NCBI GenBank assembly: GCA_016788905.1 | Contig: JAEURZ010000014.1 | Coordinates: 14,707-78,706, forward strand | Direction of reading: 5' to 3' | DNA from: Elusimicrobiota bacterium | Lineage (GTDB): Bacteria; Elusimicrobiota; Elusimicrobia; FEN-1173 | DNA length: 64,000 nt | Shown: positions 1-63,248 of the stretch, one piece after another | Layout of the letters: every line of letters begins with the position of its first letter | Numbering within the stretch: position 1 is the stretch's first letter | Notes under the pieces: model-generated | The model's database searches: none | Told to the model about the DNA's origin: nothing | Seen by the model: only the letters and a program-made list of their open reading frames with translations | Translations under genes and position numbers: made by a program

Positions 1-1736
1 ATATTCTCCTCGCCTACCTGTGTCGGTTTGCGGTACGGACACACTATGCAGTAACCGCGGGGCTTTTCTTGGCAGCGTAGTTGGGCCGCTTCACATGTCT
101 TGCGACACGCTCGCACTCAGTTCTCGGGATGAACGGCTCCCCGGATTTACCTGGAGAACCTCCCTACCACCTTGGACCGGTGACCTTCTACCGGCCGGCT
201 TACCTTTCTGCGTCCCCCCTCGGTGTGACCCACATAATGTGGTTCAGGAATATTAACCTGATGCCCATCATCTACGCCTTTCGGCCTCGACTTAGGATCG
301 ACTAACCCTGTTCAGACGAACTTTAAACAAGGAAACCTTAGGCTTGCGGCGGGTCTGATTCTCACAGACCTTATCGCTACTTATTCCGACATCCTCACTT
401 CCGTTTCGTCCAGCACTCCTATCGGTGTGCCTTCATCCTACAACGGAACGCTCCCCTACCCCGTACAATGGACGAATCCATCGTACAGCCGTGACTGCGG
501 TATCAGGTTTGAGCCCCGGACTTTTTCGGCGCGACTTAACTTGACGAGTGAGCTGTTACGCACTCTTTAAAGGATGGCTGCTTCTAAGCCAACCTCCTCG
601 CTGTCTGAGTCAAATCACATCCTTTACCACTTAACCTGAATTTTGGGACCTAGGTCGACGGTCTGGGTTGTTCCCCTCTTGCGCACGAAGCTTAGCCCTC
701 GTGAACTGACTGCAGAGTTTTCCCGTATGTATTCGGAGTTTGGTTAGATTCGGAACCGAGGTATTCGGCCCTACACTATCCAGTGCTCTACCTCACACGG
801 TCATCACTCCACGCTAGCCCTAAAGCTATTTCGGGGAGAACCAGCTATCACCAGCCTCGATTGGCCTTTCACCCCTAACCCAAGCTCATGCAGGACATTT
901 TCAACTGTCAACGCTTCGGGCCTCCATCACCGTTTAAGGTGACTTCACCCTGTCCTGGGTTAGATCGACTGGCTTCGGGTCTACTATTGCATACTTGTCG
1001 CCCGTTAAGACTCGCTTTCGCTACGGCTCCACACCTTCAAGGTGCTTAACCTTGCATGCAACAGTAACTCGCCGGATCATTCTTCAACAGGCACGACGTC
1101 GAGCATTCCCCTTGCGGGGCATAGCTCTTCGTCTGCTTGTAAACGCACGGTTTCAGGTTCTTTTCACTCCCCGTCAGGGGTCCTTTTCACCTTTCCCTCG
1201 CGGTACTTGTGCACTATCGGTCGCCAGAGAGTATTTAGCCTTGGAGAGTGGTCTCCCCGGATTCACGCCGAATTTCACGTGCTCGGCGTTACTTAGGTAC
1301 TTGTCGTGAGCCGCTTCGTTTTCGTTTACGGGACTCTCACCCTCTTTGGTCGGCCTTTCCAGGCACGTTCGACTAACGAAGCGATTTTTTACTCACCGGC
1401 TCTAAACCGGACAAGCCCTGCAACACCCACCATAGGATGGGTTTAGGCTGTTCCCCGTTCGCTCGCCACTACTGAGGGAATCTCGTTTGATTTATTTTCC
1501 TCCAGGTACTGAGATGTTTCACTTCCCTGGGTTGTCTCGACAACGGTACCTCTTCCAGTTTCCCGAAAGCATTTCCATTGCCGTTCCGTGATTTGTCACC
1601 ACGGAGGGTTTCCCCATTCAGAGATCTCCGGATCAAAGGTTGCTTGCACCTCCCCGGAGCGTTTCGTCGCTGGCCACGTCTTTCATCGACTTCTGGCGCC
1701 AAGGCATCCACCATGCGCTCTTAGTAACTTAGCCGC
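1..1736 (-). rRNA. rrl: 23S rRNA, 5' ~1.7 kb (3' part lies beyond window start)
   Basis: Reverse complement of 1690-1736 reads ...GGCTAAGTTACTAAGAGCGCATGGTGGATGCCTTGGCGCC, the canonical 23S 5' domain; conserved 23S blocks throughout 1-1700; no long ORFs. Confidence 0.85.
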
Positions 1737-1933
1737 ATCTTTATATCCTCAGTCGCATCGCGCTACTCAAGGCGTTTGGACATAAAACGTCCTAACGTCT
1801 TTTTGAAGCTCGATACAACATACAATTAGACGCTTGACTTTCCTATTCGTGTGTCAAAGAACCGCCTGCGATTGTGGCTTTTCATGCTGCCAGAACCCGG
1901 CGAACTGCAAAATTTGATTTTACAGGATCAAAG

Positions 1934-2006
1934 TGGAGCTGATCGGGATTGAACCGACGGCCTCCTGCTTGCAAAGCAGGCGCTCTCCCAGCTGAGCTAC
2001 AGCCCC
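1934..2006 (-). tRNA. tRNA-Ala (anticodon TGC) in the 16S-23S spacer
   Basis: Reverse complement GGGGCTGTAGCTCAGCTGGGAGAGCGCCTGCTTTGCAAGCAGGAGGCCGTCGGTTCAATCCCGATCAGCTCCA; cloverleaf, TGC anticodon; CCA not encoded. Confidence 0.9.
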
Positions 2007-2112
2007 ATCCTACAAAGAGTTTCACCCTAAATAGTTGGGGCATTCCTCGTATCCTTACGAGGGCAGCCCTCTTGAATAAGGCCCCGGCATCATCCTTACC
2101 CCGCCTTAAACT

Positions 2113-2186
2113 TGGGCGGAAGTGGACTCGAACCACCGGCCTCACCCTTATCAGGGGTGTGCTCTAACCAGCTGAGCTATCCGCCC
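2113..2186 (-). tRNA. tRNA-Ile (anticodon GAT) in the 16S-23S spacer
   Basis: Reverse complement GGGCGGATAGCTCAGCTGGTTAGAGCACACCCCTGATAAGGGTGAGGCCGGTGGTTCGAGTCCACTTCCGCCCA; GAT anticodon. Confidence 0.9.
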
Positions 2187-2357
2187 TGCGGAATTTCCGC
2201 GCCTCTCGCGCGCCGCAGACACCCATAGCTCCGCAAGGGTGCCCGTGATTCCAAAATTTCATTTCCAAATGCCACTTCGCAAGCTGGTGAGCGCCCCAAA
2301 GGCGCTACTGACGATCGACCTCTTTCAGCGACGCCGAAGCGTCCTGAAATACTCCTT

Positions 2358-3895
<1,538 letters not shown>

Positions 3896-4135
3896 ATCTG
3901 CGTCCAATCCTTGCGGACGGGAACAAACTTTAGAGGTTTGGTTTAGGGCTCTTGTGGAATTGCTTGAACTATAATGCACAAGCTTTATTCACACCTGAAC
4001 GTCGTATACCAATCGGCATCGAGAAGCACCCACGTCGGACCCTCTTGGTTAGAGTGTCTTTCGCTTGGAGCGCTCACCCGCCTGCGCGAATGGCTATTTG
4101 GAAATGTCAAAGAACAAAACTACGAAATCGACCCG

Positions 4136-4176
4136 ATTATACAAAAAAAATCCCAAGGGACGCAAGCGCCCCCTTC
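4136..4176 (-). promoter_or_regulatory. Candidate rRNA operon promoter (TTGCGT - 18 nt - TGTATAAT extended -10) ~240 nt upstream of the 16S 5' end
   Basis: Minus strand reads GCGCTTGCGTCCCTTGGGATTTTTTTTGTATAATCGGG; perfect TATAAT with upstream TG and A/T-rich spacer. Confidence 0.3.
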
Positions 4177-4389
4177 AAAGGATCCAGACTCCATCCTCTG
4201 GGTTCGATCCTCGGGTGGGACCGAAAATTAGAATTTCAAATTTTGCACAGCGGTTTCATTTCACCGCCAACAGGGAGGAATATAACACAAGCCCTAATTT
4301 GTGTCAAGAACTATTTCTCAAAAAAAGTTAATGTTTTTTTTGTCGGGCACCTTTTTGCGGCCGCCGCAAATCCTAGACGGAGGAATCCC

Positions 4390-4959
4390 ATGCACATCAC
4401 GCCACTCCCCCTGAACGGCCTCTTTCTCGTTGAGGCCCGCGTGTTTCGCGACTCACGAGGTTCCTTTTTCGAGAGCTTTAACGAAACGGATTTCGACACC
4501 GCGCTCTTGCCCACGCGGTTTGCCCAAGACAACGTCAGCTCTTCCGGCCGAGGGACCGTGCGTGGACTCCACTTTCAAAAACCGCCCCACGCCCAGGGGA
4601 AACTGGTCCGTGTTTTCCACGGCACGGTGCTCGACGTTGCCATTGATCTTCGAAAGGGGTCGCCGACTTACGGAAAATGGCACGCGGAAGAACTTTCTTC
4701 CGAAAATGCCCGGTCCCTCTATATTCCACCCGGTTTTGCTCACGGGTTTTGTGTGACGAGCGAAAGCGCTGTGTTCTTTTACAAATGCACGACCGCCTAC
4801 AGCCCGGCGGCCGAAAGCGGAATCCTTTGGAACGACCCCACTTTAAACATCGATTGGCCCGTGAAGCCCGGTCAAGCGCTTGTTTCCGACAAGGATAGCC
4901 GATGGCCACCGTTCGGGGACAACGACAGCCCGTTCGTTTTTGAAGTTCCCGCTAAATAA
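4390..4959 (+). CDS. rmlC: dTDP-4-dehydrorhamnose 3,5-epimerase (RmlC/RfbC), 190 aa; true start is the internal Met of the 335-aa ORF
   Basis: MHITPLPLNGLFLVEARVFRDSRGSFFESFN...RGLHFQ...YIPPGFAHGF is the cupin fold and motifs of RmlC; GGAGG RBS 7 nt upstream of ATG 4390; ORF part upstream of 4390 overlaps the rRNA leader. Confidence 0.8.
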   Translation: MHITPLPLNGLFLVEARVFRDSRGSFFESFNETDFDTALLPTRFAQDNVSSSGRGTVRGLHFQKPPHAQGKLVRVFHGTVLDVAIDLRKGSPTYGKWHAEELSSENARSLYIPPGFAHGFCVTSESAVFFYKCTTAYSPAAESGILWNDPTLNIDWPVKPGQALVSDKDSRWPPFGDNDSPFVFEVPAK

Positions 4960-5990: not shown

Positions 5991-7031
5991 TTATTCCTTT
6001 TTGAATCGTCGAAACGCGCGGACCGCGCGACGATGGTCGCCATAGGATGTGGAGAATCGATGCCCACCCTCCCCGTCCGAGACAAAGAAGAGGAAGTCCA
6101 CAGGGGCAGGGGCCATGGCCGCCGTCAAGGAATCCCGACCTGGACTAGCGATGGGCCCTGGAGGAAGGCCGTAACGGCGATACGTGTTGTAGGGGGAATC
6201 CACTTCAATATCTTTTTTATAGAGAGGATTTTTCCATCCCCCTAAAGCGTATTGGACAGTGGGATCACATTCCAAGCGCATGCGGATTTTTAAACGGTTA
6301 TGATAAACAGCGGAGACCCGTGTGCGTTCGTCCGCCCGGCGCGTTTCCCGTTCGATGAGGGAAGCGAGGGTCACGATCTGACGTACCGTCCACCGCCGCC
6401 CATCCGCGGACAGCATCACCCCGTCGGGCCCTTCGGGAACAACAGCTTCTTGCCCATCCGGAAACCGGACCCCACCGGCCTGGACCGCGGAGAGAAACAC
6501 CTCCTGCCAAACAACGTTAAATCGATTTTGCATCACACGCAGGGGTTCTGAAACGGGCGAACCCGGATCAAAAAAGTAGGTGTCCGGGAAAAGAAAGCCT
6601 TCCCAGGGAGTGGCCACCGCTCGAAATTCTTCGGCCCGACAAACGCCCTTGGATTCCAACCTCTCGGCGATTTGCCAAACAGCAAAGCCTTCAGGAACCG
6701 TCACCCGGACCGTGGCCCCACGCCCCTGAACAAGAAACCGCAAAATTCGATCCGCTCGCTCCTGAGCGGGAATACGATAGAGGCCCGCTTTCAGTTTTTG
6801 ATCTGCCCGCGTCACCCGCGCCAGCATCTCGATCCACCGAGAAGATCGAACGTGACCGTCCTCCTTCAACCGTCGCGAGATCACCCGCGCGCTGGCACCG
6901 GGCAGAATTTCAATCAATCCTCCCATCGCCTCAGGAGGTGGTGTATTCACCCAAAGAAGTATTCCCAAGAGCGGCCCCCCGCCCCCAAAAATTCCGAGCA
7001 ACACTCCCAAAAGGACAATCCGTTTTTTCAT
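5991..7031 (-). CDS. mltG: Endolytic murein transglycosylase MltG (YceG family)
   Basis: N-terminal TM helix (MKKRIVLLGVLLGIFGG), YceG signature EGFLFPDTYFF; start ATG 7031 overlaps ruvX stop (ATGA). Confidence 0.75.
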   Translation of the reverse strand: MKKRIVLLGVLLGIFGGGGPLLGILLWVNTPPPEAMGGLIEILPGASARVISRRLKEDGHVRSSRWIEMLARVTRADQKLKAGLYRIPAQERADRILRFLVQGRGATVRVTVPEGFAVWQIAERLESKGVCRAEEFRAVATPWEGFLFPDTYFFDPGSPVSEPLRVMQNRFNVVWQEVFLSAVQAGGVRFPDGQEAVVPEGPDGVMLSADGRRWTVRQIVTLASLIERETRRADERTRVSAVYHNRLKIRMRLECDPTVQYALGGWKNPLYKKDIEVDSPYNTYRRYGLPPGPIASPGRDSLTAAMAPAPVDFLFFVSDGEGGHRFSTSYGDHRRAVRAFRRFKKE

Positions 7032-7450
7032 AGGGTCTCCCCCCGCTTTTTGTCCAGGAAAGCTTGGAGGAGCAAGGTGGCCGCCGCGCGATCCACCCGC
7101 CCTTTCGAGCGTCCCATTCCAGGCCCATCCCTCAAACGAGATTCGGCTTCCCAACTGCTCAGCCGCTCATCCCAAAAAATGACCGGCAAACCCACACGTT
7201 CCAGCCGCTCCGCCAACCGTCGAACAGCGGAGGCACTTTCCCCTTCTGTCCCGCTCATGTTTTTGGGCAACCCCAAAACTATCCCAGACGCTCCTCTGTC
7301 ACGGGCCAAATCACTCAAAGCCTGAATGAGCCCCGCAAGTGATTTGGGCTCCAATGTCTGAAGAGGATGTGCCATCCGACCCAACTCATCAGAAACGGCA
7401 ACCCCAACCCGTCGACGCCCCCAGTCCACACCCAGATAAACACTCTCCAC
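7028..7450 (-). CDS. ruvX: Putative pre-16S rRNA nuclease / Holliday-junction resolvase-like YqgF (RuvX)
   Basis: 140 aa, VYLGVDWGRRRVGVAVSD N-terminus and RNase H-like fold motifs; conserved yqgF-mltG gene pair. Confidence 0.75.
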   Translation of the reverse strand: MESVYLGVDWGRRRVGVAVSDELGRMAHPLQTLEPKSLAGLIQALSDLARDRGASGIVLGLPKNMSGTEGESASAVRRLAERLERVGLPVIFWDERLSSWEAESRLRDGPGMGRSKGRVDRAAATLLLQAFLDKKRGETL

Positions 7451-7751: not shown

Positions 7752-9146
7752 TTAGTTAAAGGGATTATTTTTTAGACCACCCATTCGAAAGAAAAAAACC
7801 ATGTCATCCAAATCCCGACGAAACTTACGGGGGAGAGCGGCTCTTTGAAGGCGGAGATTTGTTGAAAGGACAGGTGGCAATGGACGATCCGGCGTTTTAA
7901 CAAAAATAAACAATGGAACCCCATGGGTGCTGTACACCTGGGCCGAAGCTGGGAGGCATTCGCGCGTAAGAACTTGAAAATCTTTCAGACTAAAAGACGC
8001 CCGCAAAGACCGTTCAAAATCGAGGTTGAACAAATACGGCTGGGTTTTTTCTTCTTTATAGGCAAAATAGAGGACAGACTTGAGAGATTTCAGTCGGCCT
8101 AAATCGGCGAGAAAAATGGCCCCACCCGGTTTCAGTATGCGGCGAATCTCACGAAAACAGTCTTTTAAGTGTTCTCGCGTGGGCAAATGATGTAACGCAA
8201 CCGTACTGATAACCCCATCCACACTGCCCTCTTCGAAAATACCGAGTTGCGTGACATCGGATTTTTGAAAAGTGACATTGGTCAGCCCCCGACCTTGAAT
8301 GTACGCACGCGCCTGGTCCAACATAGAATCCGACATATCCACCCCCACAAAGGAAATGTCCGGGTTCAGCTGAGCCACTTCGGCCAGTTGGGTGGCCGGC
8401 CCACACGCAAGGTCCACCACCCGTGAGCATCCTTGAATCGCAAGACTGATTCGAGCCGCGTGGTGGAGATAAACGGCACGAAAGCCTCCCTCCCGTCGTC
8501 CCGCGGTGGCATAGGCCACCACTTCCGTTGAATCTTCCATGACGAGGTCCGGTTCAGGTTCTCTGCGCAAGCGGCGTTGCCCCATCGTTTCCCGAAGCAA
8601 AACCCAGAGCATCGGCAAATTCAAAAACCGTCGAAACGTAGAAAACAAATCAGATAGGACCACACGGAAGCAACGACGATCGGACGATTTAAAATAATCC
8701 GCTTCTTCCTGTTGTGATTTTTGATCCACGGAAGGCCTCGTCGCAGGAGGGGCCTCGGAAAGAACGAATGAGCGGCCTGTTCGGCGAAGAAGGCTCGCCA
8801 CCCGGGCCAAAAATTCGGAAGCCTCATAGGGTTTTGTCATGTAATCATCTGCCCCGGTTTGCAAACCTTCGACTTTGTCTTCTGTTTTTAATAGCGACGT
8901 GAGGAGAAGCACCGGGACCGTTCGCGTGCGCTGGTCATTGCGAAGGATTTCGCATAACTTTACCCCTGAAATCCCGGGCAATCGAATGTCCGCCACCAGG
9001 AGGTTCGGAGACTCTTGAAAAACAATTTTTAAGGCTTCTTCGGCGGATCCCACATCAATCACCTGGTATCCCGCCCGATTTAAAATAATCCGTGTCACAT
9101 TTCGCATTTCCGAATCGTCTTCAACGAGAAGAATGAGTGGTTTCAT
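7752..9146 (-). CDS. Response-regulator receiver domain fused to a class I SAM-dependent methyltransferase (464 aa)
   Basis: N-terminus MKPLILLVEDD...LLVADIRLPGISG...GADDYMTKP is a REC domain; C-terminus VVDLACGPA (motif I), VGVDMS, DGVISTVALHHL, LKPGGAIFLADL are class I MTase motifs; start overlaps the HK stop by 4 nt. Confidence 0.75.
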   Translation of the reverse strand: MKPLILLVEDDSEMRNVTRIILNRAGYQVIDVGSAEEALKIVFQESPNLLVADIRLPGISGVKLCEILRNDQRTRTVPVLLLTSLLKTEDKVEGLQTGADDYMTKPYEASEFLARVASLLRRTGRSFVLSEAPPATRPSVDQKSQQEEADYFKSSDRRCFRVVLSDLFSTFRRFLNLPMLWVLLRETMGQRRLRREPEPDLVMEDSTEVVAYATAGRREGGFRAVYLHHAARISLAIQGCSRVVDLACGPATQLAEVAQLNPDISFVGVDMSDSMLDQARAYIQGRGLTNVTFQKSDVTQLGIFEEGSVDGVISTVALHHLPTREHLKDCFREIRRILKPGGAIFLADLGRLKSLKSVLYFAYKEEKTQPYLFNLDFERSLRASFSLKDFQVLTRECLPASAQVYSTHGVPLFIFVKTPDRPLPPVLSTNLRLQRAALPRKFRRDLDDMVFFFRMGGLKNNPFN

Positions 9147-10528
9147 AAAATCCCCTTATGAATCGGTAACGTAAAAAACAAAGCGGTCCCCTGCCCAACT
9201 ACGGATTCCACACGCAGGCGTCCTCCGTGCCCCTCCACCAAGCTTTTCACAATAGAAAGTCCCAGCCCTGAACCCTCTTGAGGTCCCGTGTTCAGAACGC
9301 GGACGGGCTGAAAGAGACGCGACAACCGTTCCGGGGTAATTCCGGGCCCCGTGTCTTTGACACCAAACTCAACGAACCCGTTGGTTTGCGCGGCGCTGAA
9401 AATGACGATAGAATCACCCCCTTGAGTGAATTTAAACGCGTTGGCCACCAGGTTCAAGAAAATGCGCAAGGTTTTTTCTTCATCCGCTTCCAGAAGAGGA
9501 AGCGTTTCGGGAAACTGAACCATGAACATCTTGTTGGATTCTTTCGCGAACGGACCGTACAGTCGAACCAGTTCTTCCACAAGGGGGGCCACCTGAAAAA
9601 CAGTCTTCCGAAAGGGAATTTCCCCTTCTCTTAACCGGGCCGCGTCCAAGATATTATTGACCATGACCCTCAAGCGGAGAGCTCCCCTCTCAATAGATTC
9701 GATGAGAGTCCGATCTTCACCCGAAAAAGCTCCTGACCGCAACACCTGAGCCGCGGTACTGATGGCACTGAGCGGATTACGTAAATCGTGAGATATGGCG
9801 TAAAGAATTCGTTCCTTCATTTCATCCAGTTCCCGCAGCCGAACCGCCATACCGTTAAATTCCCGTGCCAGACCACCCAATTCGCCCGGCGCTTTTTCGG
9901 ATACCCGAGTGTCCAACGCGCCCGATCCGATTTTTCGCGCGCCCGCGGCAAGCGCGTGAATGGGTCGTGTCAAGGTTCGCGCGGCCAAGAAGGACAGGCC
10001 TGTTCCCATGAGCAACACACCGACACCCAACCACAAAAAACGCCCCACCGTAGAGATCAGGGCCAGACGAAGTCGAGTAAGGACCCTCTCCCCATCATAA
10101 ACCACCCGCGCGGTCGCGACCCAGTCTCCCCCCTGGAAAATGGGAGATCGATAGTCCCAGCGGGATCCGACGCCTGATTCTGTCAACATGATTTTTTGCG
10201 GTTCAGCCGGAGCCCAATCCGCCTTCTTCCCTTTTTTAGTCAAGTCCGTATGCATGAGTAATTTCCCCTGAGGATTCACGCAGGCCGCTTCCACTAGGGC
10301 ACCTTCCGTTTTCAGCTGATTCATAAAATCGATGAGGCCTAACTCATTCCGGGACAGGAGTGCGTCCCCACAAGCCAATCCGAGGTGGTCCACTGTAATC
10401 CAATGGGTTTTTTCTGCCTCGCGAACAAGGTGTTGACGCTCGGCCCAAAGAAGAACACCGGAATAGACCAGGAGGACAAAAAACGTGAGGGCGGCAATCG
10501 CAACGGCGAATCGGGTCCCGATGCTCAT
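9143..10528 (-). CDS. Sensor histidine kinase (two TM helices, periplasmic sensor, HAMP, HisKA, HATPase_c)
   Basis: H-box ISHDLRNPLSAI, G-box GTGLGLSIVKSLVEGHGG, N-terminal TM plus a second TM around residue 160. Confidence 0.8.
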   Translation of the reverse strand: MSIGTRFAVAIAALTFFVLLVYSGVLLWAERQHLVREAEKTHWITVDHLGLACGDALLSRNELGLIDFMNQLKTEGALVEAACVNPQGKLLMHTDLTKKGKKADWAPAEPQKIMLTESGVGSRWDYRSPIFQGGDWVATARVVYDGERVLTRLRLALISTVGRFLWLGVGVLLMGTGLSFLAARTLTRPIHALAAGARKIGSGALDTRVSEKAPGELGGLAREFNGMAVRLRELDEMKERILYAISHDLRNPLSAISTAAQVLRSGAFSGEDRTLIESIERGALRLRVMVNNILDAARLREGEIPFRKTVFQVAPLVEELVRLYGPFAKESNKMFMVQFPETLPLLEADEEKTLRIFLNLVANAFKFTQGGDSIVIFSAAQTNGFVEFGVKDTGPGITPERLSRLFQPVRVLNTGPQEGSGLGLSIVKSLVEGHGGRLRVESVVGQGTALFFTLPIHKGIL

Positions 10529-11739
10529 GGGTGATTCTTTAATTGCCGGACAACCCGATCCAAAGCCCGCGCCGCCATTTCATCATCCGGCGCCAACCCA
10601 ACACATTGCTCAAAAGCCTTCCGCGCGGCCGAAAGGTCCCCTCGGGAATATTCCATCAACCCCTTGGAATAATATTCTGCGGCTCTTTCGTGGTCTGGAG
10701 CGGTTGGGCGAGCCAGGGGTTTTTCACTTTTATGGGGGTAGGACTTTCCCCAATCCTCCCAGAGGCGCCCGAGATTTTCCCGAGCCGCTGTGTTCAAAGG
10801 ATCTTCTTTCAAAACAGCCAACCATTCGCGCACGGCTTCTTGACGACGCCCCTGAAACTCGGCTTCCCGGGCACGGCCAATGCGACGGCCTAAATCGGCC
10901 CTCTGGGATTCGCGTCGAACGATTTCCTCTAAACGTTGAACTTCTTCCTTTGCAAAACGGTTTGTCGAATCCAACACCAACCCTTCCCGATAATACCCCA
11001 AGGCCGCCCGATAATTTCCTTCTGAATATTGGGTTTCGCCCAATCCAAATTTCTTTCTTGCGAGAGCACGCCGTTCATCTATTTTCAGGCTGTTTTCAAT
11101 TTCCTGAACATAACGTGCTAACTCCTGATCGGAGGGATCCAAACTTAACGCCTTTTTCCATTCCGTCAAAGCGGGAACAATATCCATTCGTTGGTAAGCC
11201 ATAAAACCAGAAACACGATGAATATCCACTTCGGCGGGAAGCACGCCCGCCGCAACACCTGAAGAGAGGGAGAGACAAAGATCTCTAAGATACTCATTGC
11301 GGCGGGGGTCGGGGTCATCGTTCGCCAGGGAGATTTGCATTTGAAGTTCGACACCCCGACAGGTGTGAAGGAGAGATTCCGGCGTGGTCCGCCATTTGTG
11401 TTCATAGGACGCTCGAAGGTTGTTGAGCGCTTTCCGCGTTTCATGTTCCTGCTGATTTAAGGTGTGAAGGGCGCGAACGAGAGCGGGCCCGCGATCCTCT
11501 CGGGCAAGGACATCCAGTTCATTGGCCTTTTTTTCAATGGCCGCGGCGGTCACCTTCAGGCGTTTCAGGGCACCGACATGGCCTGGATCTTCCGAGAGGA
11601 TGTCCAGGAGCTTATCCATGGCCCCGGTCAGATCTCCCTGAGCCTGGAGTTCTTTCCAATCCTGAAATGGGGGTTTTCCCCCCGCCCAAAGGCCAACGGT
11701 CCCGAGAAAGAGAAAAACTAACGCCCCGAATCGTCCCAT
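10525..11739 (-). CDS. Secreted tetratricopeptide-repeat (TPR) protein with signal peptide
   Basis: MGRFGALVFLFLGTVGLWAGG signal; repeated helical A/L/Y-rich 34-aa units (AALGYYREGL..., AAEYYSKGLMEY...); 4-nt overlap with the HK start. Confidence 0.6.
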   Translation of the reverse strand: MGRFGALVFLFLGTVGLWAGGKPPFQDWKELQAQGDLTGAMDKLLDILSEDPGHVGALKRLKVTAAAIEKKANELDVLAREDRGPALVRALHTLNQQEHETRKALNNLRASYEHKWRTTPESLLHTCRGVELQMQISLANDDPDPRRNEYLRDLCLSLSSGVAAGVLPAEVDIHRVSGFMAYQRMDIVPALTEWKKALSLDPSDQELARYVQEIENSLKIDERRALARKKFGLGETQYSEGNYRAALGYYREGLVLDSTNRFAKEEVQRLEEIVRRESQRADLGRRIGRAREAEFQGRRQEAVREWLAVLKEDPLNTAARENLGRLWEDWGKSYPHKSEKPLARPTAPDHERAAEYYSKGLMEYSRGDLSAARKAFEQCVGLAPDDEMAARALDRVVRQLKNHP

Positions 11740-12776
11740 TCTTTTTTGAGCCGTTGGTTGGCCTCCCGCAACTTCAGGAGGGCTTTTGAGTGATGGGGGT
11801 CCGCCGCCAAGGCACGGTTGAAATTCACTACGGCTCGGGCAAAATCTTCTTGCCGCAAATAACCCAATCCCTTTTCATAAAACGCTTCCGCGGGTTTCCC
11901 AAAGTGCCAAACCAGTCCCACATGGTGCGTGTTCCCCAGATCCCCCAGAGGGGCAAACGCGTAATCCAAACGGAGATCTCCCACACGAAACCCCAACCCG
12001 TAAGTAAACGAATCTTCTGTACTCCCATCATACCCCAAACGAAAAAAGGACGAACCGCCGGAGGCGTATTCGATCCCCACCATCGGGCGGAGGTCTTCTC
12101 CGTTGGATTGGACCAGGTCCGCCGCTAGAGTAATTTTTTCATCCCAAACCCCTGTGGCAATCCCAAACCGTAATTCACGCGGCGGGCCTTGCCCGGGGGA
12201 CCAACCCACCCCCAGTCTTCGAACGGAAACTCCCGCGCGGAACCCCTGGAAAAACGTGGGCGCGGGGAGACGAGCCAATAATCCCCCATCAAAAAATGCC
12301 CCTTGAATGGATTGATCGTGAAATTTACGTTCGGTTTGATTCAACGCGATACCCGCCCACACTCGATTTCGAAATCCTCCCGCGCCGGAAATCTGGAACC
12401 AATCTTCGCGTGCGCCAATGTTGCCCAGCGCGTTTCCTGACGAATCCAGCCCCGAGATGGTTCCGTAATCGACACCTGACCACCGGGCGGCCAAGGTTCC
12501 TTTTTCCATGGGAAAGGCAACACCCAAGGAGTCTCTTATTATGGATTCGACCCCCTCGTGGTGGGAAAGGGACACTTCCCCCCGGGCCAACCGCCCCAGA
12601 CCGGCAGGATTCAAAACCCCGGACGCGTGGTCATCCCCCAACGCCGTCCCGGCCCCACCCAGGCCCATGGAACGAACTCCAGGAGAAGCGGAAAGGAATT
12701 CCCATTCTTCTCCCTCTCCTGCCAAAAGGGATAAGGAGAAGAGCACCCCTCCGACAGCGATAACTATTTTTTTCAT
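11718..12776 (-). CDS. Outer-membrane beta-barrel protein of the PorV/FadL-like type with a C-terminal TPR-like tail
   Basis: Signal peptide MKKIVIAVGGVLFSLSLLAG; N-terminal motif GLGGAGTALGDDHASGVLNPAGLG (as in PorV/FadL-family barrels); alternating Gly/aromatic beta-strand pattern; C-terminal YAFAPLGDLGNTHHVGLVWHF then a helical segment. Confidence 0.45.
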   Translation of the reverse strand: MKKIVIAVGGVLFSLSLLAGEGEEWEFLSASPGVRSMGLGGAGTALGDDHASGVLNPAGLGRLARGEVSLSHHEGVESIIRDSLGVAFPMEKGTLAARWSGVDYGTISGLDSSGNALGNIGAREDWFQISGAGGFRNRVWAGIALNQTERKFHDQSIQGAFFDGGLLARLPAPTFFQGFRAGVSVRRLGVGWSPGQGPPRELRFGIATGVWDEKITLAADLVQSNGEDLRPMVGIEYASGGSSFFRLGYDGSTEDSFTYGLGFRVGDLRLDYAFAPLGDLGNTHHVGLVWHFGKPAEAFYEKGLGYLRQEDFARAVVNFNRALAADPHHSKALLKLREANQRLKKEWDDSGR

Positions 12777-14197
12777 CGGATGACCATCAGTTTTCCTTTT
12801 TTAGCCACACCGGGGCTTTGAACATGATAGAGATAGACTCCCGGGACGACGGGTCTTCCCGATGTGTTTTTACCATCCCAGCAGAGAATGCCGTCTCCTC
12901 CCGTTTCTTCCAGCTGTCTCACTTCCCGCCCCGATGCCGTAAAAATTCGAAGCGTGGCCCGCTCGGCTAAGTTTGCGAAAGTGACCTGGGCGTCCGTCCC
13001 CTGGCGAAATGGGTTTGGCGATACACGAAGATCTTGGAGAGAAACGTCTTCCTGGCCCATCACCGACAGCGTCCCGAGTGATTGAACAATCGCCACGACC
13101 TTCCCGTCTTCCACACGAGAAGGGATCTTGTTCCAAAGCCCCGCGTGAAAATCAAGCCGGTAGAAACTGAGCGTGGTTTCCCGAACAAGGCCTGCCCCCG
13201 TTTCGACCCAACCGTCATTCGATGCGAAGTCGTAGCTCAGGGTCGCGGGGGCATGAAGATTTTCGTCCAAATGGGCGGGGCAGGCGCGGCTGGATTGGAT
13301 TTCCGCTAACCCATTCGGAAGGGGGCGACGTCGGACATCCCCGGTTCCCAGTATTTTATGATTGGCATCTAATATTTTTTCTGGAAGTGTCGGCGATTGA
13401 AGTGGATTCTCCAGGGGGGCGGCGTTGAAGGTCATGGTGTCTTCCGATGAAATATCCAATGGGGAGAGAGAGAGCTCCCAACGATTGTTTCCCCACAAAT
13501 AATTCGTTTGAGGAGGGCTGTCCGAAAGGGTGCGGGTTGATCCGAGAACGTGGAACGGGGTGGGAATCCCCTCCCGATTGAGGGCTCGAACACGTGCGTA
13601 GTATAATGTTCCCGGTGAAAGACACCCAATTTTTTTCGCTATTAAATTTCCGTATTCGGACGAAATAGATTCAACGAGGGGCTCATCAAAACCAGCCTTT
13701 TCCGAAAATTGGATTTGATAGTTTGTTCCAATGGGATTAATTTGCCCACTAACCCCGGTGGACCACCAAGCCACAGTAATGCTTCGACTCTGAACATTTT
13801 GAAATGGGATCGACCACGAATCGGAGGGAGGCGCCGCCAAAGAAGCAAAACTCCACCGTTGAAGCAATTCACTCGCGTTTTCAATCCAAAAAACATCCAC
13901 GCGATTTTCGGCGTTTAAAAAGAAATTTCCTATTTCCAATTGACCCTCTGTCCCGAGTGGGGCAAAAGTATAAACGCCCTGTACATTTTGTTCTGCATCG
14001 ATAATGCTAAAACGCAAATGATCACCAACGCCACAACTGTTATTCGTCCAATGGAGGGTCACTTTGGTGTAATCGTTTTGCGTCGCATAAAAATCTGACG
14101 CGCAGGGGAAAATGTCAATCGCTCCCAACATCAAACAAGAATAAAGGACAATAGATTTCACAATTTGAATTCTATCCCCAAAAATCTCTTTTAACAA
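12773..14197 (-). CDS. Secreted fibronectin-III-repeat protein with C-terminal T9SS-type / FlgD-Ig-like sorting domain
   Basis: FN3-like segments (YTKVTLHWTNNS, ITVAWWSTG...GTLYYARVRALN); C-terminus VSPNPF...ATLRIFTASGREVRQL...CWDGKNTSGRPVVPGVYLYHVQS...KGKLMVIR matches the Por-secretion-tail / FlgD-Ig consensus; N-terminal hydrophobic signal. Confidence 0.55.
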   Translation of the reverse strand: MLKEIFGDRIQIVKSIVLYSCLMLGAIDIFPCASDFYATQNDYTKVTLHWTNNSCGVGDHLRFSIIDAEQNVQGVYTFAPLGTEGQLEIGNFFLNAENRVDVFWIENASELLQRWSFASLAAPPSDSWSIPFQNVQSRSITVAWWSTGVSGQINPIGTNYQIQFSEKAGFDEPLVESISSEYGNLIAKKIGCLSPGTLYYARVRALNREGIPTPFHVLGSTRTLSDSPPQTNYLWGNNRWELSLSPLDISSEDTMTFNAAPLENPLQSPTLPEKILDANHKILGTGDVRRRPLPNGLAEIQSSRACPAHLDENLHAPATLSYDFASNDGWVETGAGLVRETTLSFYRLDFHAGLWNKIPSRVEDGKVVAIVQSLGTLSVMGQEDVSLQDLRVSPNPFRQGTDAQVTFANLAERATLRIFTASGREVRQLEETGGDGILCWDGKNTSGRPVVPGVYLYHVQSPGVAKKGKLMVIR

Positions 14198-14251: not shown

Positions 14252-15679
14252 TTACCGCTTGATTTGTTTAAGGACGTTGCCTTTGGGGTCCGTGATTTCG
14301 AGGAGGAGAGGCATGGAGCCTACGGCGTGGGTGGAACAGGAGAGACAGGGGTCGTAACAACGGATGGCACCTTCCACACGGTTCAGGGCGCCCTCCTTCA
14401 CATCGGCGCCGTTCACGTAGGTTTTGGCCACTTCCAAAACAGCTTGGTTCATGGACGGGTTATTTTGTCCCGTGGCGATCAGCAAATTGACGCTGGTGAG
14501 GATCCCGTTGGGGTCCACCTTGTAGTGGTGGAAGAGGGTTCCCCGGGGAGCTTCTGAACACCCCACCCCTTCGGACCGGTTTCGGCCCGCTTCGGAGCGG
14601 ATCTCTGTGGACATCACCCGGGGATCATTCAAAATCATCTCGACCAGTTCAACGGAACTCATCATTTCGATGATCCGCGCGTGATGGAAAGCGAAAGACC
14701 CAGAGACCGGCCGACCACCCGCAATGGAACGGAAATCTAAAAATTCTTTTTGCGCGTGCGGGGTCGGCATGCGGGTCGCCGCGTTCAACCGGGCCAGGGG
14801 CCCCACGCGATAGATCCCGCCGGGGTATCCCAAGGGTTTAAAGTAGGGCGCTTTTAAATAGGAATATTCCAACGGCCGTTCCGCAATAAATTCCGCGAAA
14901 CGGGCCGGATCCACCTGATCCGCCACGATGTTGCCCACAGCGTCCACCCACCGAAGTTTTCCATCATAAAGTTCGTGGGTCCCGTCCGGAAGAACCGTGC
15001 CTAAGTAAAGAGTGTCGAACCGGGCGAAGGCCTCCATTTCTTTCCGGTTGGCCTCCCAATATTTTTTGTAGAGCGCCAAAGCCACTCGAACGCTTTCCAT
15101 GGCTTCCGGAATCCAGGCCAAAAGCGCCAGTCGGTTTTCTTCGGTCAGGGCCTGGGTCACGCCCCCAGGAACAATGGCTCCGTTGTGGATCTTTTTCCCC
15201 GACAACCGGGAGGAGAGTTCCTGCCCGAATTTACGAAGCCGGATCCCCCGGCGTGCCACGTCCGGAAATTTTTCGGCGATATGCATGATATTGCGCGTCG
15301 TGGGGTCCGCGTCCCAACCCAAAAGGAAATCCGGCGACGACAAATGGAAAAAGCTGAGCGCGTGAGAACTGAACATCTGGCCCAAGTGCATGAGTCGGCG
15401 CAGAAGTGTCGCCGTGGGAGGGACCTCCACCGCCATAATATCTTCGCAGGCCTTGGCGCTGGCCACCGCGTGGCTCACGGGACAAATTCCACAAATCCGT
15501 GGTGTGATGATGGGCATTTCCGTGAAGTGCCTTCCTTCACAAAACTTTTCAAACCCGCGGAACTCTTCCACATGAAACCGAGCGTCCGCCACTTTCCCGT
15601 CATTTCCTAACATCAACGTGATTTTGGCGTGGCCTTCCACGCGGGTCACGGGATGAATCACAATTGTCTTGTCAGCCAT
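14252..15679 (-). CDS. hoxH: [NiFe]-hydrogenase large subunit, NAD-coupled (bidirectional) type HoxH
   Basis: N-terminal RICGICPVSH and C-terminal DPCLSCSTHAVG Ni-binding Cys motifs; 475 aa. Confidence 0.85.
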   Translation of the reverse strand: MADKTIVIHPVTRVEGHAKITLMLGNDGKVADARFHVEEFRGFEKFCEGRHFTEMPIITPRICGICPVSHAVASAKACEDIMAVEVPPTATLLRRLMHLGQMFSSHALSFFHLSSPDFLLGWDADPTTRNIMHIAEKFPDVARRGIRLRKFGQELSSRLSGKKIHNGAIVPGGVTQALTEENRLALLAWIPEAMESVRVALALYKKYWEANRKEMEAFARFDTLYLGTVLPDGTHELYDGKLRWVDAVGNIVADQVDPARFAEFIAERPLEYSYLKAPYFKPLGYPGGIYRVGPLARLNAATRMPTPHAQKEFLDFRSIAGGRPVSGSFAFHHARIIEMMSSVELVEMILNDPRVMSTEIRSEAGRNRSEGVGCSEAPRGTLFHHYKVDPNGILTSVNLLIATGQNNPSMNQAVLEVAKTYVNGADVKEGALNRVEGAIRCYDPCLSCSTHAVGSMPLLLEITDPKGNVLKQIKR

Positions 15680-16208
15680 TTTTTAAAGCCCCCGGGGGAA
15701 TGACCAACGGCTGGCCCTCCAGTAACGCCTTCAGTGCGGCAAAGATCAACTCAGGAGCGGGCGGGCACCCCGGCACATGTACATCCACCTTCACGTAACT
15801 GGCCAAGGGACAGGCGCGCGGAAGAAGGGTCGGAATGTCCACCGTCGGCATCGCCCCCTGTCCATCGTTCGTCACGATTTTATTGTAGGCGTGATCCAAC
15901 ATGGCCGCGGGGCCCAAAAGGTTCCGAAGGGCCGTCACGTTTCCTGTGACAGCACAATCTCCCAGCGCCACCACAACCTTAGAACGTTCCCTGATTTTCA
16001 GGATTTGCGCCCTGTCTTGATCTGTCGACACACATCCTTCCACCACCGCCACGTCGACGCCTTCCGGAAACTCTTTCGTGTCCACAAGGGGGCTTTTCAC
16101 CAGCGCCATGAGGGGCGCTAATTCTAAAAGTCCTTCGTCAATATCCAAAAGAGACATATGACAACCGGAACACCCACCCAGCCAAACGGTAGCGACGCGT
16201 TTTTTCAT
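15672..16208 (-). CDS. hoxY: [NiFe]-hydrogenase small subunit HoxY (NuoB-like)
   Basis: MKKRVATVWLGGCSGCHMSLLD proximal-cluster Cys motif and GCPP motif; 178 aa. Confidence 0.85.
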   Translation of the reverse strand: MKKRVATVWLGGCSGCHMSLLDIDEGLLELAPLMALVKSPLVDTKEFPEGVDVAVVEGCVSTDQDRAQILKIRERSKVVVALGDCAVTGNVTALRNLLGPAAMLDHAYNKIVTNDGQGAMPTVDIPTLLPRACPLASYVKVDVHVPGCPPAPELIFAALKALLEGQPLVIPPGALKNG

Positions 16209-16909: not shown

Positions 16910-16994
16910 GGGTTCAGACCTCGTGTCCGAAGGCCAAAAGATTCGATCCCTCTCCCACCCCTCTCCCAAGAGGAGAGGGAAATCACGTTAAGGT

Positions 16995-63124: not shown

Positions 63125-63240
63125 GTAACAAGGGAATTTTACTTCGATTAATCATCTTGTATTTCATTTTATTCAAAATAGAAAAAGGCGTCAACGGGCC
63201 TTTCCCGAAGAAAGAAGAGTATAGATAATAATTGTTAGGC
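63125..63240 (+). other. Candidate attI site ending in the core GTTAGGC (63234-63240); AT-rich, divergent from intI
   Basis: GTTRRRY core site positioned 110 bp upstream of the intI start, followed immediately by an AT-rich ORF and an attC-like element. Confidence 0.5.
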
Positions 63241-63248
63241 GCTAAAGA

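What the first reader, a model, noticed from the sequence alone, without database searches (positions are those of the whole stretch)
7752..9146. Response regulator with methyltransferase output domain
- N-terminus: a REC domain with phospho-acceptor Asp (LLVADIRLPG) and a ~100-aa linker.
- C-terminus: a complete class I SAM MTase motif set (VVDLACGPA / VGVDMS / DGVISTVAL / LKPGGAIFLADL).
- Context: REC-regulated methylation outside chemotaxis (CheB is REC-methylesterase, CheR is a stand-alone MTase) is uncommon.
- Implication: the cognate kinase is adjacent, so phosphorylation-gated methylation of an unknown substrate is implied.
Basis: partly seen in the sequence, partly recalled or inferred. 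Interest (0 to 1): 0.6.

Follow-up and report, generated by a model that had tools for sequence, protein, structure and literature searches.

The report
Response regulator fused to a methyltransferase
In one clade of uncultured Elusimicrobia, a two-component response regulator has lost its DNA-binding domain and gained a complete, well-conserved SAM methyltransferase that close relatives encode as a separate gene beside the same operon, so the enzyme is probably now switched directly by phosphorylation.

Summary

- **The gene.** Window 7752-9146 (minus strand) is one 464-aa ORF.
  - It has an OmpR/PhoB-type receiver with every phospho-acceptor residue.
  - A 48-aa linker follows (not ~100 aa).
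  - The rest is a complete class I SAM methyltransferase.
  - Its start overlaps the stop of a HAMP-HisKA-HATPase sensor kinase by 4 bp.
- **Not an artefact.**
  - The identical protein occurs on 10 independent contigs.
  - Two orthologues (81% and 76% identical) keep the architecture.
  - Both domains are under strong purifying selection.
- **Origin.** Sister Elusimicrobia have the same operon ending in an ordinary REC + winged-helix regulator. There the methyltransferase is a separate, divergently transcribed gene behind a candidate OmpR-type direct repeat.
- **The enzyme family.**
  - It is an uncharacterised, well-conserved family, about 55% identical to hundreds of stand-alone proteobacterial proteins.
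  - Those proteins sit beside PepA-type PEP-CTERM genes and PrsT.
  - Elsewhere the family is fused to ABC1/UbiB kinases and to a fatty-acid desaturase.
  - I infer a lipid-like small-molecule substrate tied to cell-surface assembly; this is not shown.
- **Rarity.** This fusion forms a single 50%-identity cluster among 1.84 billion representatives.
- **Rating.** A new variant of a known kind (enzymatic response regulators), of moderate interest.

The parts
7752..9146 (-). REC-methyltransferase fusion gene (464 aa; identical to NCBI MBL8023983.1, 'MAG: response regulator [Elusimicrobia bacterium]')
   Evidence: ORF; Pfam Response_reg + Methyltransf_25/11/31/12; exact match P0001 on 10 contigs
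8775..9146 (-). Receiver (REC) domain, residues 1-124, OmpR/PhoB/RpaA type; D10, D11, D53, T83, Y102, K105
   Evidence: Pfam 2.9e-25; gapless alignment to RpaA and PhoB; 57% identical to the REC of the syntenic OmpR-type regulator in L001; pN 0.10-0.16 with saturated pS
8631..8774 (-). Linker, residues 125-172; fast-evolving but fixed at 48 aa in all three fused orthologues
   Evidence: 31-46% identity against 77-87% for the domains; pN 0.36-0.47; low pLDDT; no detectable homology to L001 DNA
7755..8630 (-). Complete class I SAM methyltransferase module, residues 173-464: family-specific N-terminal cap, Rossmann core, C-terminal helical hairpin
   Evidence: 72% identical over its whole length to the stand-alone P0005, from that protein's residue 2; all family-invariant residues kept; pLDDT above 90 for most of residues 220-464; Foldseek hits to small-molecule class I MTases
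9143..10528 (-). Cognate sensor histidine kinase (461 aa): TM1, ~125-aa extracytoplasmic loop, TM2, HAMP, HisKA (His247), HATPase_c; 4-bp overlap with the regulator gene
   Evidence: Pfam; hydropathy and H-box; 48% identical orthologue in L001
10525..11739 (-). TPR-repeat protein (404 aa), operon member
   Evidence: Pfam TPR families; orthologue in L001, L003, L089, L092
11718..12776 (-). PorV/PorQ-like outer-membrane protein with a C-terminal TPR (352 aa), operon member
   Evidence: NCBIfam PorV_fam 86.6 bits against a cutoff of 90, so marginal; PorQ 48 bits; TPR at 296-329
12773..14197 (-). Surface protein with fn3 and a T9SS-type A C-terminal sorting / FlgD-Ig-like domain (474 aa), first gene of the operon
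   Evidence: Pfam FlgD_ig and fn3; TIGR04183 23.1 bits against a cutoff of 23, so marginal; PorZ/PorU C-terminal similarity

Best explanation
**What it is.** A functional two-component response regulator whose output is an enzyme rather than a DNA-binding domain.

**How it most likely works.**
1. The membrane kinase senses an extracytoplasmic signal and phosphorylates Asp53 of the OmpR-type receiver.
2. As in other OmpR/PhoB receivers, phosphorylation drives dimerisation through the alpha4-beta5-alpha5 face.
3. Through the flexible 48-aa tether, this switches the activity of the attached class I SAM methyltransferase, either by bringing two catalytic domains together or by relieving inhibition.

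**How it arose.** The protein came from a domain swap or fusion. Sister Elusimicrobia have the same five-gene operon (T9SS-type sorted surface protein, PorV/Q-like protein, TPR protein, kinase, regulator). Theirs ends in a normal REC + winged-helix regulator, and the methyltransferase is a separate, divergently transcribed neighbour behind a candidate OmpR-type direct repeat. Control of the enzyme has therefore probably moved from transcription to direct phosphorylation.

**The enzyme.** It belongs to an uncharacterised, well-conserved cytoplasmic methyltransferase family.
- In Proteobacteria the family sits in PEP-CTERM/exosortase (PepA, PrsT, N-acyl amino acid synthase) loci.
- Elsewhere it is fused to ABC1/UbiB kinases, an FAD oxidase and a fatty-acid desaturase.
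- Its substrate is therefore most likely a lipid-like or quinone-like small molecule connected with assembly of the cell surface or matrix.

**Shown:** architecture, conserved residues, operon orthology, origin of both halves, purifying selection, family distribution and neighbourhoods.

**Inferred:** phosphotransfer, dimerisation-based gating, direction of regulation, substrate class.
For: **Architecture**
- One ORF with REC + MTase.
- All REC phospho-acceptor and switch residues are present, and the receiver aligns without gaps to RpaA/PhoB.
- All MTase family-invariant residues are retained.
- The MTase half is modelled confidently and has a class I small-molecule MTase fold.
- The kinase overlaps by 4 bp and has TM-loop-TM-HAMP-HisKA-HATPase topology.
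- The fusion protein has no hydrophobic segment, so it is cytoplasmic.

**Reality of the fusion**
- The identical protein is on 10 contigs from independent samples.
- Orthologues of 81% and 76% identity sit in the same operon context.
- pS is saturated while pN is 0.10-0.16 in both domains.

**Origin**
- L001/L002 and L089 carry the orthologous operon with a REC + Trans_reg_C regulator and a divergent stand-alone MTase.
- The fusion's REC is 57% identical to that regulator's REC. Its MTase is 72% identical to that stand-alone enzyme from residue 2.
- An 11-bp-period direct repeat, TTTCACATT-N2-TTTCACTTT, lies in the divergent intergenic region of the unfused lineages only.

**Substrate class**
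- A PepA-type PEP-CTERM gene lies within 700 bp in at least 36 of 62 proteobacterial loci.
- PrsT, the exosortase-associated acyltransferase TIGR03694, FeeM-like, ThiF, nitroreductase-like and LolCDE-like genes are nearby.
- Five clusters fuse the family to ABC1 kinase domains, one of them also carrying FAD_binding_4, and one cluster fuses it to FA_desaturase.
Against: - There are no biochemical data. Phosphotransfer, SAM binding, catalysis and any effect of phosphorylation are all untested.
- The REC half of the structure model is low-confidence, because only three sequences cover it in the alignment. No inter-domain geometry or dimer model was obtained.
- The substrate is unknown.
  - The nearest structures are only 13-25% identical and cover many substrate types.
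  - The many invariant charged residues could equally fit a polar substrate.
- The window has no PEP-CTERM protein, N-acyl amino acid synthase or ABC1 kinase. The proteobacterial context may therefore not transfer to Elusimicrobia.
- The T9SS-type assignments of the operon partners are at or just below curated cutoffs.
- The two unfused lineages are close relatives, so conservation of the direct repeat is weak evidence on its own.
- The direction of evolution (fusion or fission) is inferred by parsimony only.
Confidence: 0.6

Rival explanations
1. The fusion only tethers or co-expresses the enzyme and does not regulate it. The methyltransferase would be constitutively active. The receiver would act independently, for example as a phosphate sink or as a scaffold placing the enzyme near the kinase at the membrane.
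For: - The linker is long, poorly conserved and predicted to be flexible, which does not obviously transmit an allosteric signal.
- The methyltransferase works as a stand-alone protein in hundreds of other genomes.
Against: - Both domains and the exact linker length are conserved beyond silent-site saturation.
- The receiver keeps every residue needed for phosphorylation and the Y102/T83 switch.
- The receiver is the only regulator encoded with the kinase. It replaces, at the same operon position, the DNA-binding regulator of sister lineages.
- From established knowledge: flexible linkers are typical of dimerisation-activated regulators such as PhoB.
Confidence: 0.15
2. The enzyme is a protein methyltransferase. 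It would methylate a signalling or sorting protein, such as the kinase, a TPR partner or the precursor of the sorted surface protein. That would make it a non-chemotaxis analogue of CheR-type adaptation.
For: - In two unrelated sorting systems the family sits directly beside genes for sorted surface proteins: PepA-type PEP-CTERM in Proteobacteria and a T9SS-type C-terminal-domain protein in Elusimicrobia.
- Many invariant charged residues lie outside the SAM pocket.
Against: - No CheR, PrmA or other protein-methyltransferase family is matched. The best fold and profile neighbours are small-molecule C/O/N-methyltransferases: CouO, NovO, BelI/CysG, Coq5, RebM, CpaM, BioC.
- The recurrent fusions are to lipid or quinone-type partners (ABC1/UbiB, FAD oxidase, fatty-acid desaturase), not to protein-binding modules.
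- The enzyme is cytoplasmic, while the candidate protein substrates are exported.
Confidence: 0.1
3. Signalling runs in reverse. The methyltransferase-like domain would act as a SAM/SAH or substrate sensor that tunes phosphorylation or dephosphorylation of the receiver. The protein would then be an input or adaptor element, not an effector.
For: - From established knowledge: enzymatic domains attached to receivers sometimes act as regulatory or adaptor modules, for example the RssB PP2C-like domain.
- Loss of the DNA-binding domain leaves the kinase with no obvious transcriptional output in the window.
Against: - The residues kept include not only the SAM pocket but all family-invariant positions outside it, with pN as low as in stand-alone enzymes. 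This argues for retained catalysis.
- No downstream partner regulator was found in the 64-kb window.
Confidence: 0.1
4. The fusion is an artefact: a chimeric assembly, a sequencing frameshift or a gene-calling error that joins two separate genes.
For: - The sequence comes from a metagenome-assembled genome.
- Close relatives do have the two halves in separate genes.
Against: - The identical 464-aa product is found on 10 contigs from independent assemblies in NCBI, JGI and Logan.
- Two diverged orthologues of exactly the same length sit in the same synteny.
- There is no stop or frameshift.
- There is no conserved internal Met and no ribosome-binding site at the junction.
- Purifying selection acts across the whole gene.
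Confidence: 0.01

Closest known systems
OmpR/PhoB-family response regulators (PhoB, RpaA, MtrA)
   Same: - The receiver is of this type. It aligns without gaps to RpaA residues 1-125 (107 bits) and to PhoB with identical numbering.
- Read from the sequence and compared with PhoB from established knowledge, most alpha4-beta5-alpha5 interface positions are kept: V92, L95, D100, D101, E111, A114, R115.
- The syntenic orthologue in sister genomes is a true OmpR-type regulator.
   Different: The defining winged-helix Trans_reg_C DNA-binding domain is absent and replaced by an enzyme. By architecture the protein is therefore not a member of this family.
CheB (REC-methylesterase) and CheR (stand-alone methyltransferase) of chemotaxis
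   Same: - Receiver control of methyl-group chemistry.
- Like CheB, a receiver is joined by a linker to a catalytic domain and phosphorylated by a dedicated kinase.
   Different: - No CheB_methylest or CheR domain is detected.
- The kinase is a HisKA-type sensor kinase, not CheA.
- There are no chemotaxis genes nearby.
- The enzyme adds methyl groups rather than removing them, and it resembles small-molecule methyltransferases.
Enzymatic response regulators activated by receiver dimerisation or oligomerisation (PleD and WspR REC-GGDEF, RpfG REC-HD-GYP)
   Same: - Same design principle: receiver + flexible linker + enzyme.
- PleD's first receiver is among the best sequence matches.
   Different: The output is a class I SAM methyltransferase. 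I found no characterised example of that output in the literature available here.
PorX-PorY of Porphyromonas (REC fused to an alkaline-phosphatase-superfamily enzyme, regulating type IX secretion); recalled from established knowledge, not tested here
   Same: - An atypical regulator with an enzymatic output and no DNA-binding domain.
- It is genetically linked to type IX-style secretion and sorting components. Here those are a PorV/Q-like protein and a cargo with a T9SS-type C-terminal domain in the same operon.
   Different: - The output domain is unrelated.
- The T9SS-type assignments here are marginal.
- No core T9SS genes were identified among the window ORFs I scanned.
Unnamed stand-alone methyltransferase family of PEP-CTERM/exosortase loci (e.g. 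P0031 and P0109 from Thiobacillus, P0064 from a betaproteobacterium, and loci in Zoogloea, Accumulibacter, Methylomonas and Herbaspirillum)
   Same: - Residues 173-464 are a full-length member: 53-60% identity, all invariant residues, and the same N-terminal cap and C-terminal hairpin.
- Both forms sit next to a gene for a C-terminally sorted surface protein and TPR proteins.
   Different: - It is fused to a receiver.
- The host is Elusimicrobia.
- The neighbour is a T9SS-type rather than a PEP-CTERM protein.
- No N-acyl amino acid synthase, ThiF, nitroreductase-like or PrsT genes are in the window.
UbiE/Coq5 quinone C-methyltransferases and their ABC1 partners UbiB/Coq8
   Same: - Class I fold, with Coq5 among the top structural matches.
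- Weak UbiE/MenG profile hits.
- The family is repeatedly fused to ABC1 kinase domains. From established knowledge, this echoes the ubiE-ubiJ-ubiB operon of E. coli.
   Different: - Scores are far below the UbiE/MenG cutoffs: 46.8 bits against 216, and 45.5 against 158.
- The family has its own conserved cap and C-terminal motifs, so it is not an orthologue.

Membership tests
Two-component response regulator (REC superfamily) | Receiver-domain fold/profile match | tested here: met
   Pfam PF00072, 89 bits against a cutoff of 30.2, residues 5-116; PDB receiver hits down to E = 2.7e-30
Two-component response regulator (REC superfamily) | Conserved acidic pocket, phospho-acceptor Asp, Thr/Ser, aromatic switch residue and Lys | tested here: met
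   D10, D11, D53, T83, Y102 and K105 read from the translation and aligned to RpaA/PhoB
Two-component response regulator (REC superfamily) | Cognate histidine kinase encoded with it | tested here: met
   HAMP-HisKA-HATPase_c kinase with a 4-bp overlap; the pairing is conserved in all five related lineages
Two-component response regulator (REC superfamily) | Phosphotransfer to the receiver Asp | not testable with these tools
   Needs an in-vitro phosphotransfer or Phos-tag assay
OmpR/PhoB family | C-terminal winged-helix Trans_reg_C DNA-binding domain | tested here: not met
   No PF00486 hit. All NCBIfam OmpR-family models match only residues 1-~125, at scores far below their cutoffs. The L001 orthologue has the domain.
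Class I SAM-dependent methyltransferase | Rossmann-type methyltransferase profile and fold | tested here: met
   Methyltransf_25/11/31/12 all above cutoff; model pLDDT above 90; Foldseek probability 1.0 to CouO, NovO, BelI and Coq5
Class I SAM-dependent methyltransferase | SAM-binding motifs: motif I D-L-x-C-G-P, acidic residue after beta2, motifs III and IV | tested here: met
   D245-L-A-C-G249-P250, D270, D297 and S314-T315 are conserved across 38 family members. The first Gly of motif I is Ala here, as it is in some other members of the alignment, including stand-alone ones.
Class I SAM-dependent methyltransferase | SAM binding and methyl transfer | not testable with these tools
   Needs biochemistry
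Chemotaxis CheB/CheR | CheB_methylest or CheR catalytic domain, with CheA/CheW/MCP neighbours | tested here: not met
   No such Pfam hit at E <= 0.01; the neighbours are TPR, PorV-like, RuvX, YceG and hydrogenase genes
Arsenite methyltransferase ArsM (the name JGI gives this protein) | Score at or above the curated ArsM family cutoff | tested here: not met
   NF008823, 51.3 bits against a cutoff of 263; only the Rossmann core aligns
UbiE/MenG quinone methyltransferase | Score at or above the curated cutoff | tested here: not met
   PRK00216.1-5, 46.8 bits against 216; TIGR01934, 45.5 against 158
Stand-alone PEP-CTERM-locus methyltransferase family (unnamed) | Full-length homology including the family-specific N-terminal cap (REPEPDLVMDD...) and C-terminal motif (RYRRDLDD...GGL.NDPF) | tested here: met
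   53-60% identity over residues ~175-464 to more than 100 proteins at E < 1e-95; all 47 invariant columns retained
Stand-alone PEP-CTERM-locus methyltransferase family (unnamed) | Adjacent PEP-CTERM (PepA-type) gene and PrsT / exosortase-associated genes | tested here: not met
   No PEP-CTERM-like C-terminus in any of 275 window reading frames. The operon partner is instead a T9SS-type C-terminal-domain protein.

The most novel reading that the evidence does not exclude
This methyltransferase family could be an unrecognised, conserved cytoplasmic component of systems that display C-terminally sorted surface proteins, meaning PEP-CTERM/exosortase in Proteobacteria and a T9SS-like module in Elusimicrobia. 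It would methylate a lipid-like molecule, for example an N-acyl amino acid or a quinone/isoprenoid derivative, that is needed for anchoring or matrix assembly.

On this reading, one Elusimicrobia clade rewired control of the enzyme. Regulation by an OmpR-type regulator binding a TTTCAC direct repeat was replaced by direct phosphorylation control, through swapping the regulator's DNA-binding domain for the enzyme itself.

That would be the first response regulator with a class I methyltransferase output whose ancestral state (unfused) and derived state (fused) both still exist in nature.
Probability: 0.2. Interest if true: 0.7.

Novelty: new variant of a known kind. Interest (0 to 1): 0.5.

Why it matters
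**1. A natural experiment in signalling evolution.** The same kinase-regulator pair and the same target enzyme exist in two wirings: a transcription factor plus a separate enzyme gene, and a direct receiver-enzyme fusion. The speed, cost and logic of transcriptional and post-translational control could be compared on one system.

**2. A handle on an uncharacterised enzyme family.** The family is about 55% identical across phyla. It sits next to the flocculation protein PepA and PrsT in activated-sludge and environmental Proteobacteria, yet it is absent from the PEP-CTERM and floc-formation papers I could read. The fusion is Rosetta-stone evidence that the enzyme belongs functionally with a surface-protein/TPR/two-component module. 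The ABC1, FAD-oxidase and desaturase fusions point to a lipid-like substrate.

**3. A new enzymatic output class.** If confirmed, it would add SAM-dependent methylation to the known enzymatic outputs of response regulators.

Tried and rejected
- **Chimera or frameshift:** rejected. The protein is on 10 independent contigs, two orthologues keep the architecture, and both domains are under purifying selection.
- **Internal start giving a stand-alone MTase:** rejected. Met179 is not conserved in P0003 and has no ribosome-binding site upstream.
- **JGI's name 'arsenite methyltransferase' and the UbiE label:** rejected. Scores are far below the curated cutoffs.
- **Chemotaxis-type CheB/CheR relationship:** rejected. 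No such domains or neighbours.
- **Apparent second fusion in L065 (tblastn match to query residues 87-445):** spurious upstream extension. L065 encodes an ordinary stand-alone enzyme.
- **Census of REC fused to any methyltransferase, from the exhaustive search:** failed. The top 150 hits were filled by family members and by multi-REC proteins whose domain scores add up. Rarity is established only within this family.
- **Origin of the 48-aa linker:** no detectable similarity to the L001 intergenic region, the winged-helix coding region, or anything else in that locus.
- **Solved-structure homologue that would name the substrate:** none. Only Rossmann-core matches at about 50 bits and 13-25% identity.
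- **Literature:**
  - No characterised REC + class I methyltransferase regulator was found.
  - Two ids I tried for Galperin's census and his review (PMC1482966, PMC3086570) returned nothing, and Craig, Cherry and Brady 2011 (PMC3187218) is not held either.
  - The Haft 2006 paper and the pepA floc paper do not mention this methyltransferase.
  - The methyltransferases listed in the Rubrivivax EPS paper appear to be other genes.
- **Context of the MTase-ABC1 fusions:** housekeeping neighbours only, so uninformative.
- **Promoter/terminator scan of the operon:** nothing above background.
Full report
**1. Observation**

The finding's coordinates match one uninterrupted ORF, 7752-9146 on the minus strand (ATG start, 464 aa).

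- Pfam finds Response_reg at residues 5-116 (E = 2.9e-25) and Methyltransf_25 at 243-342 (E = 1.5e-21). Methyltransf_11, _31 and _12 are also above their cutoffs.
- Read from the translation, the receiver has the full catalytic set: D10, D11, phospho-acceptor D53 (LLVADIRLPG), T83, Y102 and K105-P106.
- The receiver aligns without gaps to RpaA 1-125 (107 bits) and to PhoB with identical numbering.
- NCBIfam OmpR-family models match only residues 1-~125, far below their cutoffs. There is no Trans_reg_C domain.
- The upstream gene, 9143-10528 (-), is a HAMP-HisKA-HATPase_c kinase. It has two hydrophobic segments around a loop of about 125 aa and the H-box His at residue 247. Its stop overlaps the regulator's ATG by 4 bp.
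- The fusion protein has no hydrophobic segment, so it is cytoplasmic.

**2. The fusion is real**

- The identical protein (P0001 = NCBI MBL8023983.1, 'MAG: response regulator [Elusimicrobia bacterium]') is encoded on 10 contigs from independent NCBI, JGI and Logan assemblies.
- Two diverged orthologues, P0002 (81% identical) and P0003 (76%), are also exactly 464 aa and lie in the same operon (L003, L092).
- Between the three genes, silent sites are saturated (pS 0.65-0.82). Non-synonymous divergence is only 0.10-0.16 in the receiver and 0.10-0.12 in the methyltransferase.
- The 48-aa linker is relaxed (pN 0.36-0.47; 31-46% identity) but constant in length.
- No conserved internal Met or ribosome-binding site exists at the junction.

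**3. Where the two halves come from**

Two sister Elusimicrobiota lineages were compared: L001/L002/L009 (GCA_041917295.1, an EBPR sludge MAG) and L089-L091.

- Both carry the orthologous operon: C-terminal-domain surface protein, ~350-aa protein, TPR protein, kinase, regulator.
- There the regulator is an ordinary 227-231-aa REC + Trans_reg_C protein.
- There the methyltransferase (P0005, P0004) is a separate gene transcribed divergently from the first operon gene.
- Window residues 1-124 are 57% identical to that regulator's receiver.
- Window residues 173-464 are 72% identical to the whole stand-alone enzyme, starting at its residue 2. The other operon proteins are 33-48% identical.

The divergent intergenic region of both unfused lineages contains a direct repeat, TTTCACATT-N2-TTTCACTTT, with an 11-bp period, inside a highly conserved block.

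- It lies about 100-157 bp upstream of the methyltransferase ATG and about 117 bp from the operon's first gene.
- This is the layout typical of OmpR/PhoB boxes (established knowledge).
- The pattern is absent from the whole window and from all fused-lineage loci, even with 3 mismatches.
- This fits a model in which the ancestral regulator controlled the enzyme gene or the operon transcriptionally. The evidence is weak, because the two unfused lineages are close relatives.

Stand-alone enzymes and OmpR-type regulators are the norm everywhere else, so fusion is more parsimonious than fission. In the unfused relatives the two genes lie at opposite ends of the operon. If that layout is ancestral, fusion needed a rearrangement rather than a simple read-through. 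This step is inferred.

**4. The methyltransferase family**

- Residues ~175-464 match hundreds of ~290-aa stand-alone proteins at 53-60% identity (E < 1e-95).
- A 38-sequence alignment shows 47 invariant columns, all retained here. They include the SAM motifs and the family-specific N- and C-terminal motifs.
- No NCBIfam model is specific for the family. ArsM (JGI's label), UbiE, BioC and CpaM models hit only the Rossmann core, far below their cutoffs.
- No solved structure is close.
- An AlphaFold model is confident for the enzyme half and poor for the receiver half, which only three sequences cover in the alignment.
- Foldseek's best PDB matches are small-molecule methyltransferases (CouO, NovO, BelI/CysG, Coq5, RebM) at 13-25% identity.
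- Among 185,579 species representatives, about 100 encode the family. Of the 80 loci kept, nearly all are Beta- or Gammaproteobacteria (Thiobacillus, Rhodocyclaceae, Zoogloea, Accumulibacter, Nitrosomonas, Methylomonas, Herbaspirillum). A few are Myxococcota, Bdellovibrionales, Desulfobulbus or Acidobacteriota, and one is an Elusimicrobiota genome.

Neighbourhoods in the proteobacterial loci:

- A PEP-CTERM gene lies within 700 bp in at least 36 of 62 loci. One of them reaches the curated cutoff for 'flocculation-associated PEP-CTERM protein PepA' (167 bits against 80).
- Other recurrent neighbours are PrsT (742 bits), the exosortase-associated acyltransferase TIGR03694, FeeM-like, ThiF, Acg/Rv1355c-type nitroreductase-like, LolCDE-like ABC and DUF1302-like genes.

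What the literature says:

[quoted passage not shown] 2011, as cited in PMC7293339 and PMC11072679).
- PepA and PrsT are required for, or involved in, floc formation (PMC9850573).
- None of the papers I could read mentions this methyltransferase.

An exhaustive HMMER search of 1.84 billion cluster representatives gave two results.

- Exactly one cluster (P0002) has the full-length REC + enzyme architecture.
- The same enzyme family is fused to ABC1/UbiB atypical kinase domains in five clusters, one of which also carries an FAD-binding oxidase, and to a fatty-acid desaturase in another.

These partners point to a lipid-like or quinone-like small-molecule substrate. This is an inference.

**5. 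The operon**

- The first gene (12773-14197) has fn3 and a FlgD-Ig / T9SS type A sorting domain (TIGR04183, 23.1 bits against a cutoff of 23).
- The second gene (11718-12776) is PorV/PorQ-like (86.6 bits against 90) with a TPR tail.
- The third gene is a TPR protein.
- These assignments are marginal but mutually consistent.

The enzyme family therefore sits with a C-terminally sorted surface protein, TPR proteins and a two-component system in two unrelated sorting contexts.

The window has no PEP-CTERM-like protein. The ORFs I scanned elsewhere in it are chromosomal housekeeping genes.

**6. Mechanism**

*Shown:* an intact receiver, an intact enzyme, a translationally coupled kinase, and long-term co-conservation.

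*Inferred:* the kinase phosphorylates D53. The OmpR-type receiver then dimerises through alpha4-beta5-alpha5, where most PhoB interface positions are kept. Through the flexible 48-aa tether, this changes the activity of the methyltransferase. Control of the enzyme has moved from transcription to direct phosphorylation. Confidence is about 0.6 for this overall picture and about 0.35 for the lipid-like substrate.

*Rivals:* tethering without regulation; a protein-methylating enzyme; reverse signalling in which the enzyme domain acts as a sensor; and an artefact, which is refuted.

**7. Comparison and novelty**

- Response regulators with enzymatic outputs are a known kind: CheB, PleD/WspR, RpfG and PorX.
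- The receiver here descends from the OmpR/PhoB family, but the protein fails that family's defining DNA-binding-domain test.
- It is not CheB/CheR-like, and it is neither ArsM nor UbiE.
- I found no characterised regulator with a class I methyltransferase output in the searchable literature. I could not count uncharacterised REC-methyltransferase architectures in other enzyme families.
- The protein is already deposited and named 'response regulator', so the sequence is not new. The interpretation, the traceable domain swap and the family's genomic associations are.

Rating: a new variant of a known kind; interest 0.5.

Noticed in passing
window 1-3895 (-): An rRNA operon at the window edge: the 5' part of 23S (1-1734, cut by the window end), tRNA-Ala (1934-2006), tRNA-Ile (2113-2186) and a complete 16S (2360-3895). 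Mechanical ORFs listed over this stretch are spurious.
   Followed up: yes
P0122, P0123, P0124, P0130, P0250, P0260; L097-L100: The same methyltransferase family (45-53% identical) is fused to ABC1/UbiB atypical kinase domains in five clusters. One of these also has an N-terminal FAD_binding_4 oxidase (1365 aa). A separate cluster fuses the family to a fatty-acid desaturase. P0130 is on 8 contigs of up to more than 200 kb, so the fusions are real.
   Followed up: partly
L010-L073 (e.g. L011 7090-7935, L016 7012-7887, L004 6033-6893): In Proteobacteria the stand-alone methyltransferase sits immediately next to a PepA-type flocculation PEP-CTERM gene (at least 36 of 62 loci), with PrsT, the exosortase-associated acyltransferase, ThiF and nitroreductase-like genes close by. 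The PEP-CTERM and floc papers I could read do not mention this association.
   Followed up: partly
L001 7844-7863; L089 5944-5963: A candidate OmpR-type box, TTTCACATT-N2-TTTCACTTT (11-bp period), lies in the divergent promoter region between the methyltransferase gene and the operon. It is found only in the unfused lineages.
   Followed up: partly
L001 7931-7944 and 7990-8003: A 59-bp tandem duplication repeats the ribosome-binding site and start codon (GGGAGGCGGCCATG) of the stand-alone methyltransferase gene. L089 has a single copy.
   Followed up: no
window 14252-19134 (-): A NiFe hydrogenase with NuoE/F/G-like diaphorase subunits (a Hox-type bidirectional hydrogenase layout) lies directly upstream of the operon. 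The same junction is conserved in L092.
   Followed up: no
L092 1580-4374: The P0003 lineage has two tandem paralogues of the FlgD-Ig/C-terminal-domain surface protein (466 and 465 aa). The window has one.
   Followed up: no
window 5991-7154 (-) and 3952-4959 (+): Two mechanical ORF starts are probably too far upstream. The YceG/MltG ORF (387 aa, TTG start) overlaps RuvX by 127 bp, while gene calls in L003 and L093 give 346-347 aa with a 4-bp overlap. The 335-aa ORF at 3952-4959 begins just past the end of the 16S gene, and only its C-terminal ~190 aa corresponds to the dTDP-sugar isomerase gene called in L003.
   Followed up: partly
window 62001-64000: G+C falls to 0.468, against 0.51-0.59 across the rest of the window.
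   Followed up: no
P0004 and P0005 C-termini (L001 8001-9065; L089 6042-7079): The unfused Elusimicrobia methyltransferases carry a poorly conserved C-terminal extension of 50-60 aa. It is absent from the fused proteins and from the proteobacterial homologues.
   Followed up: no
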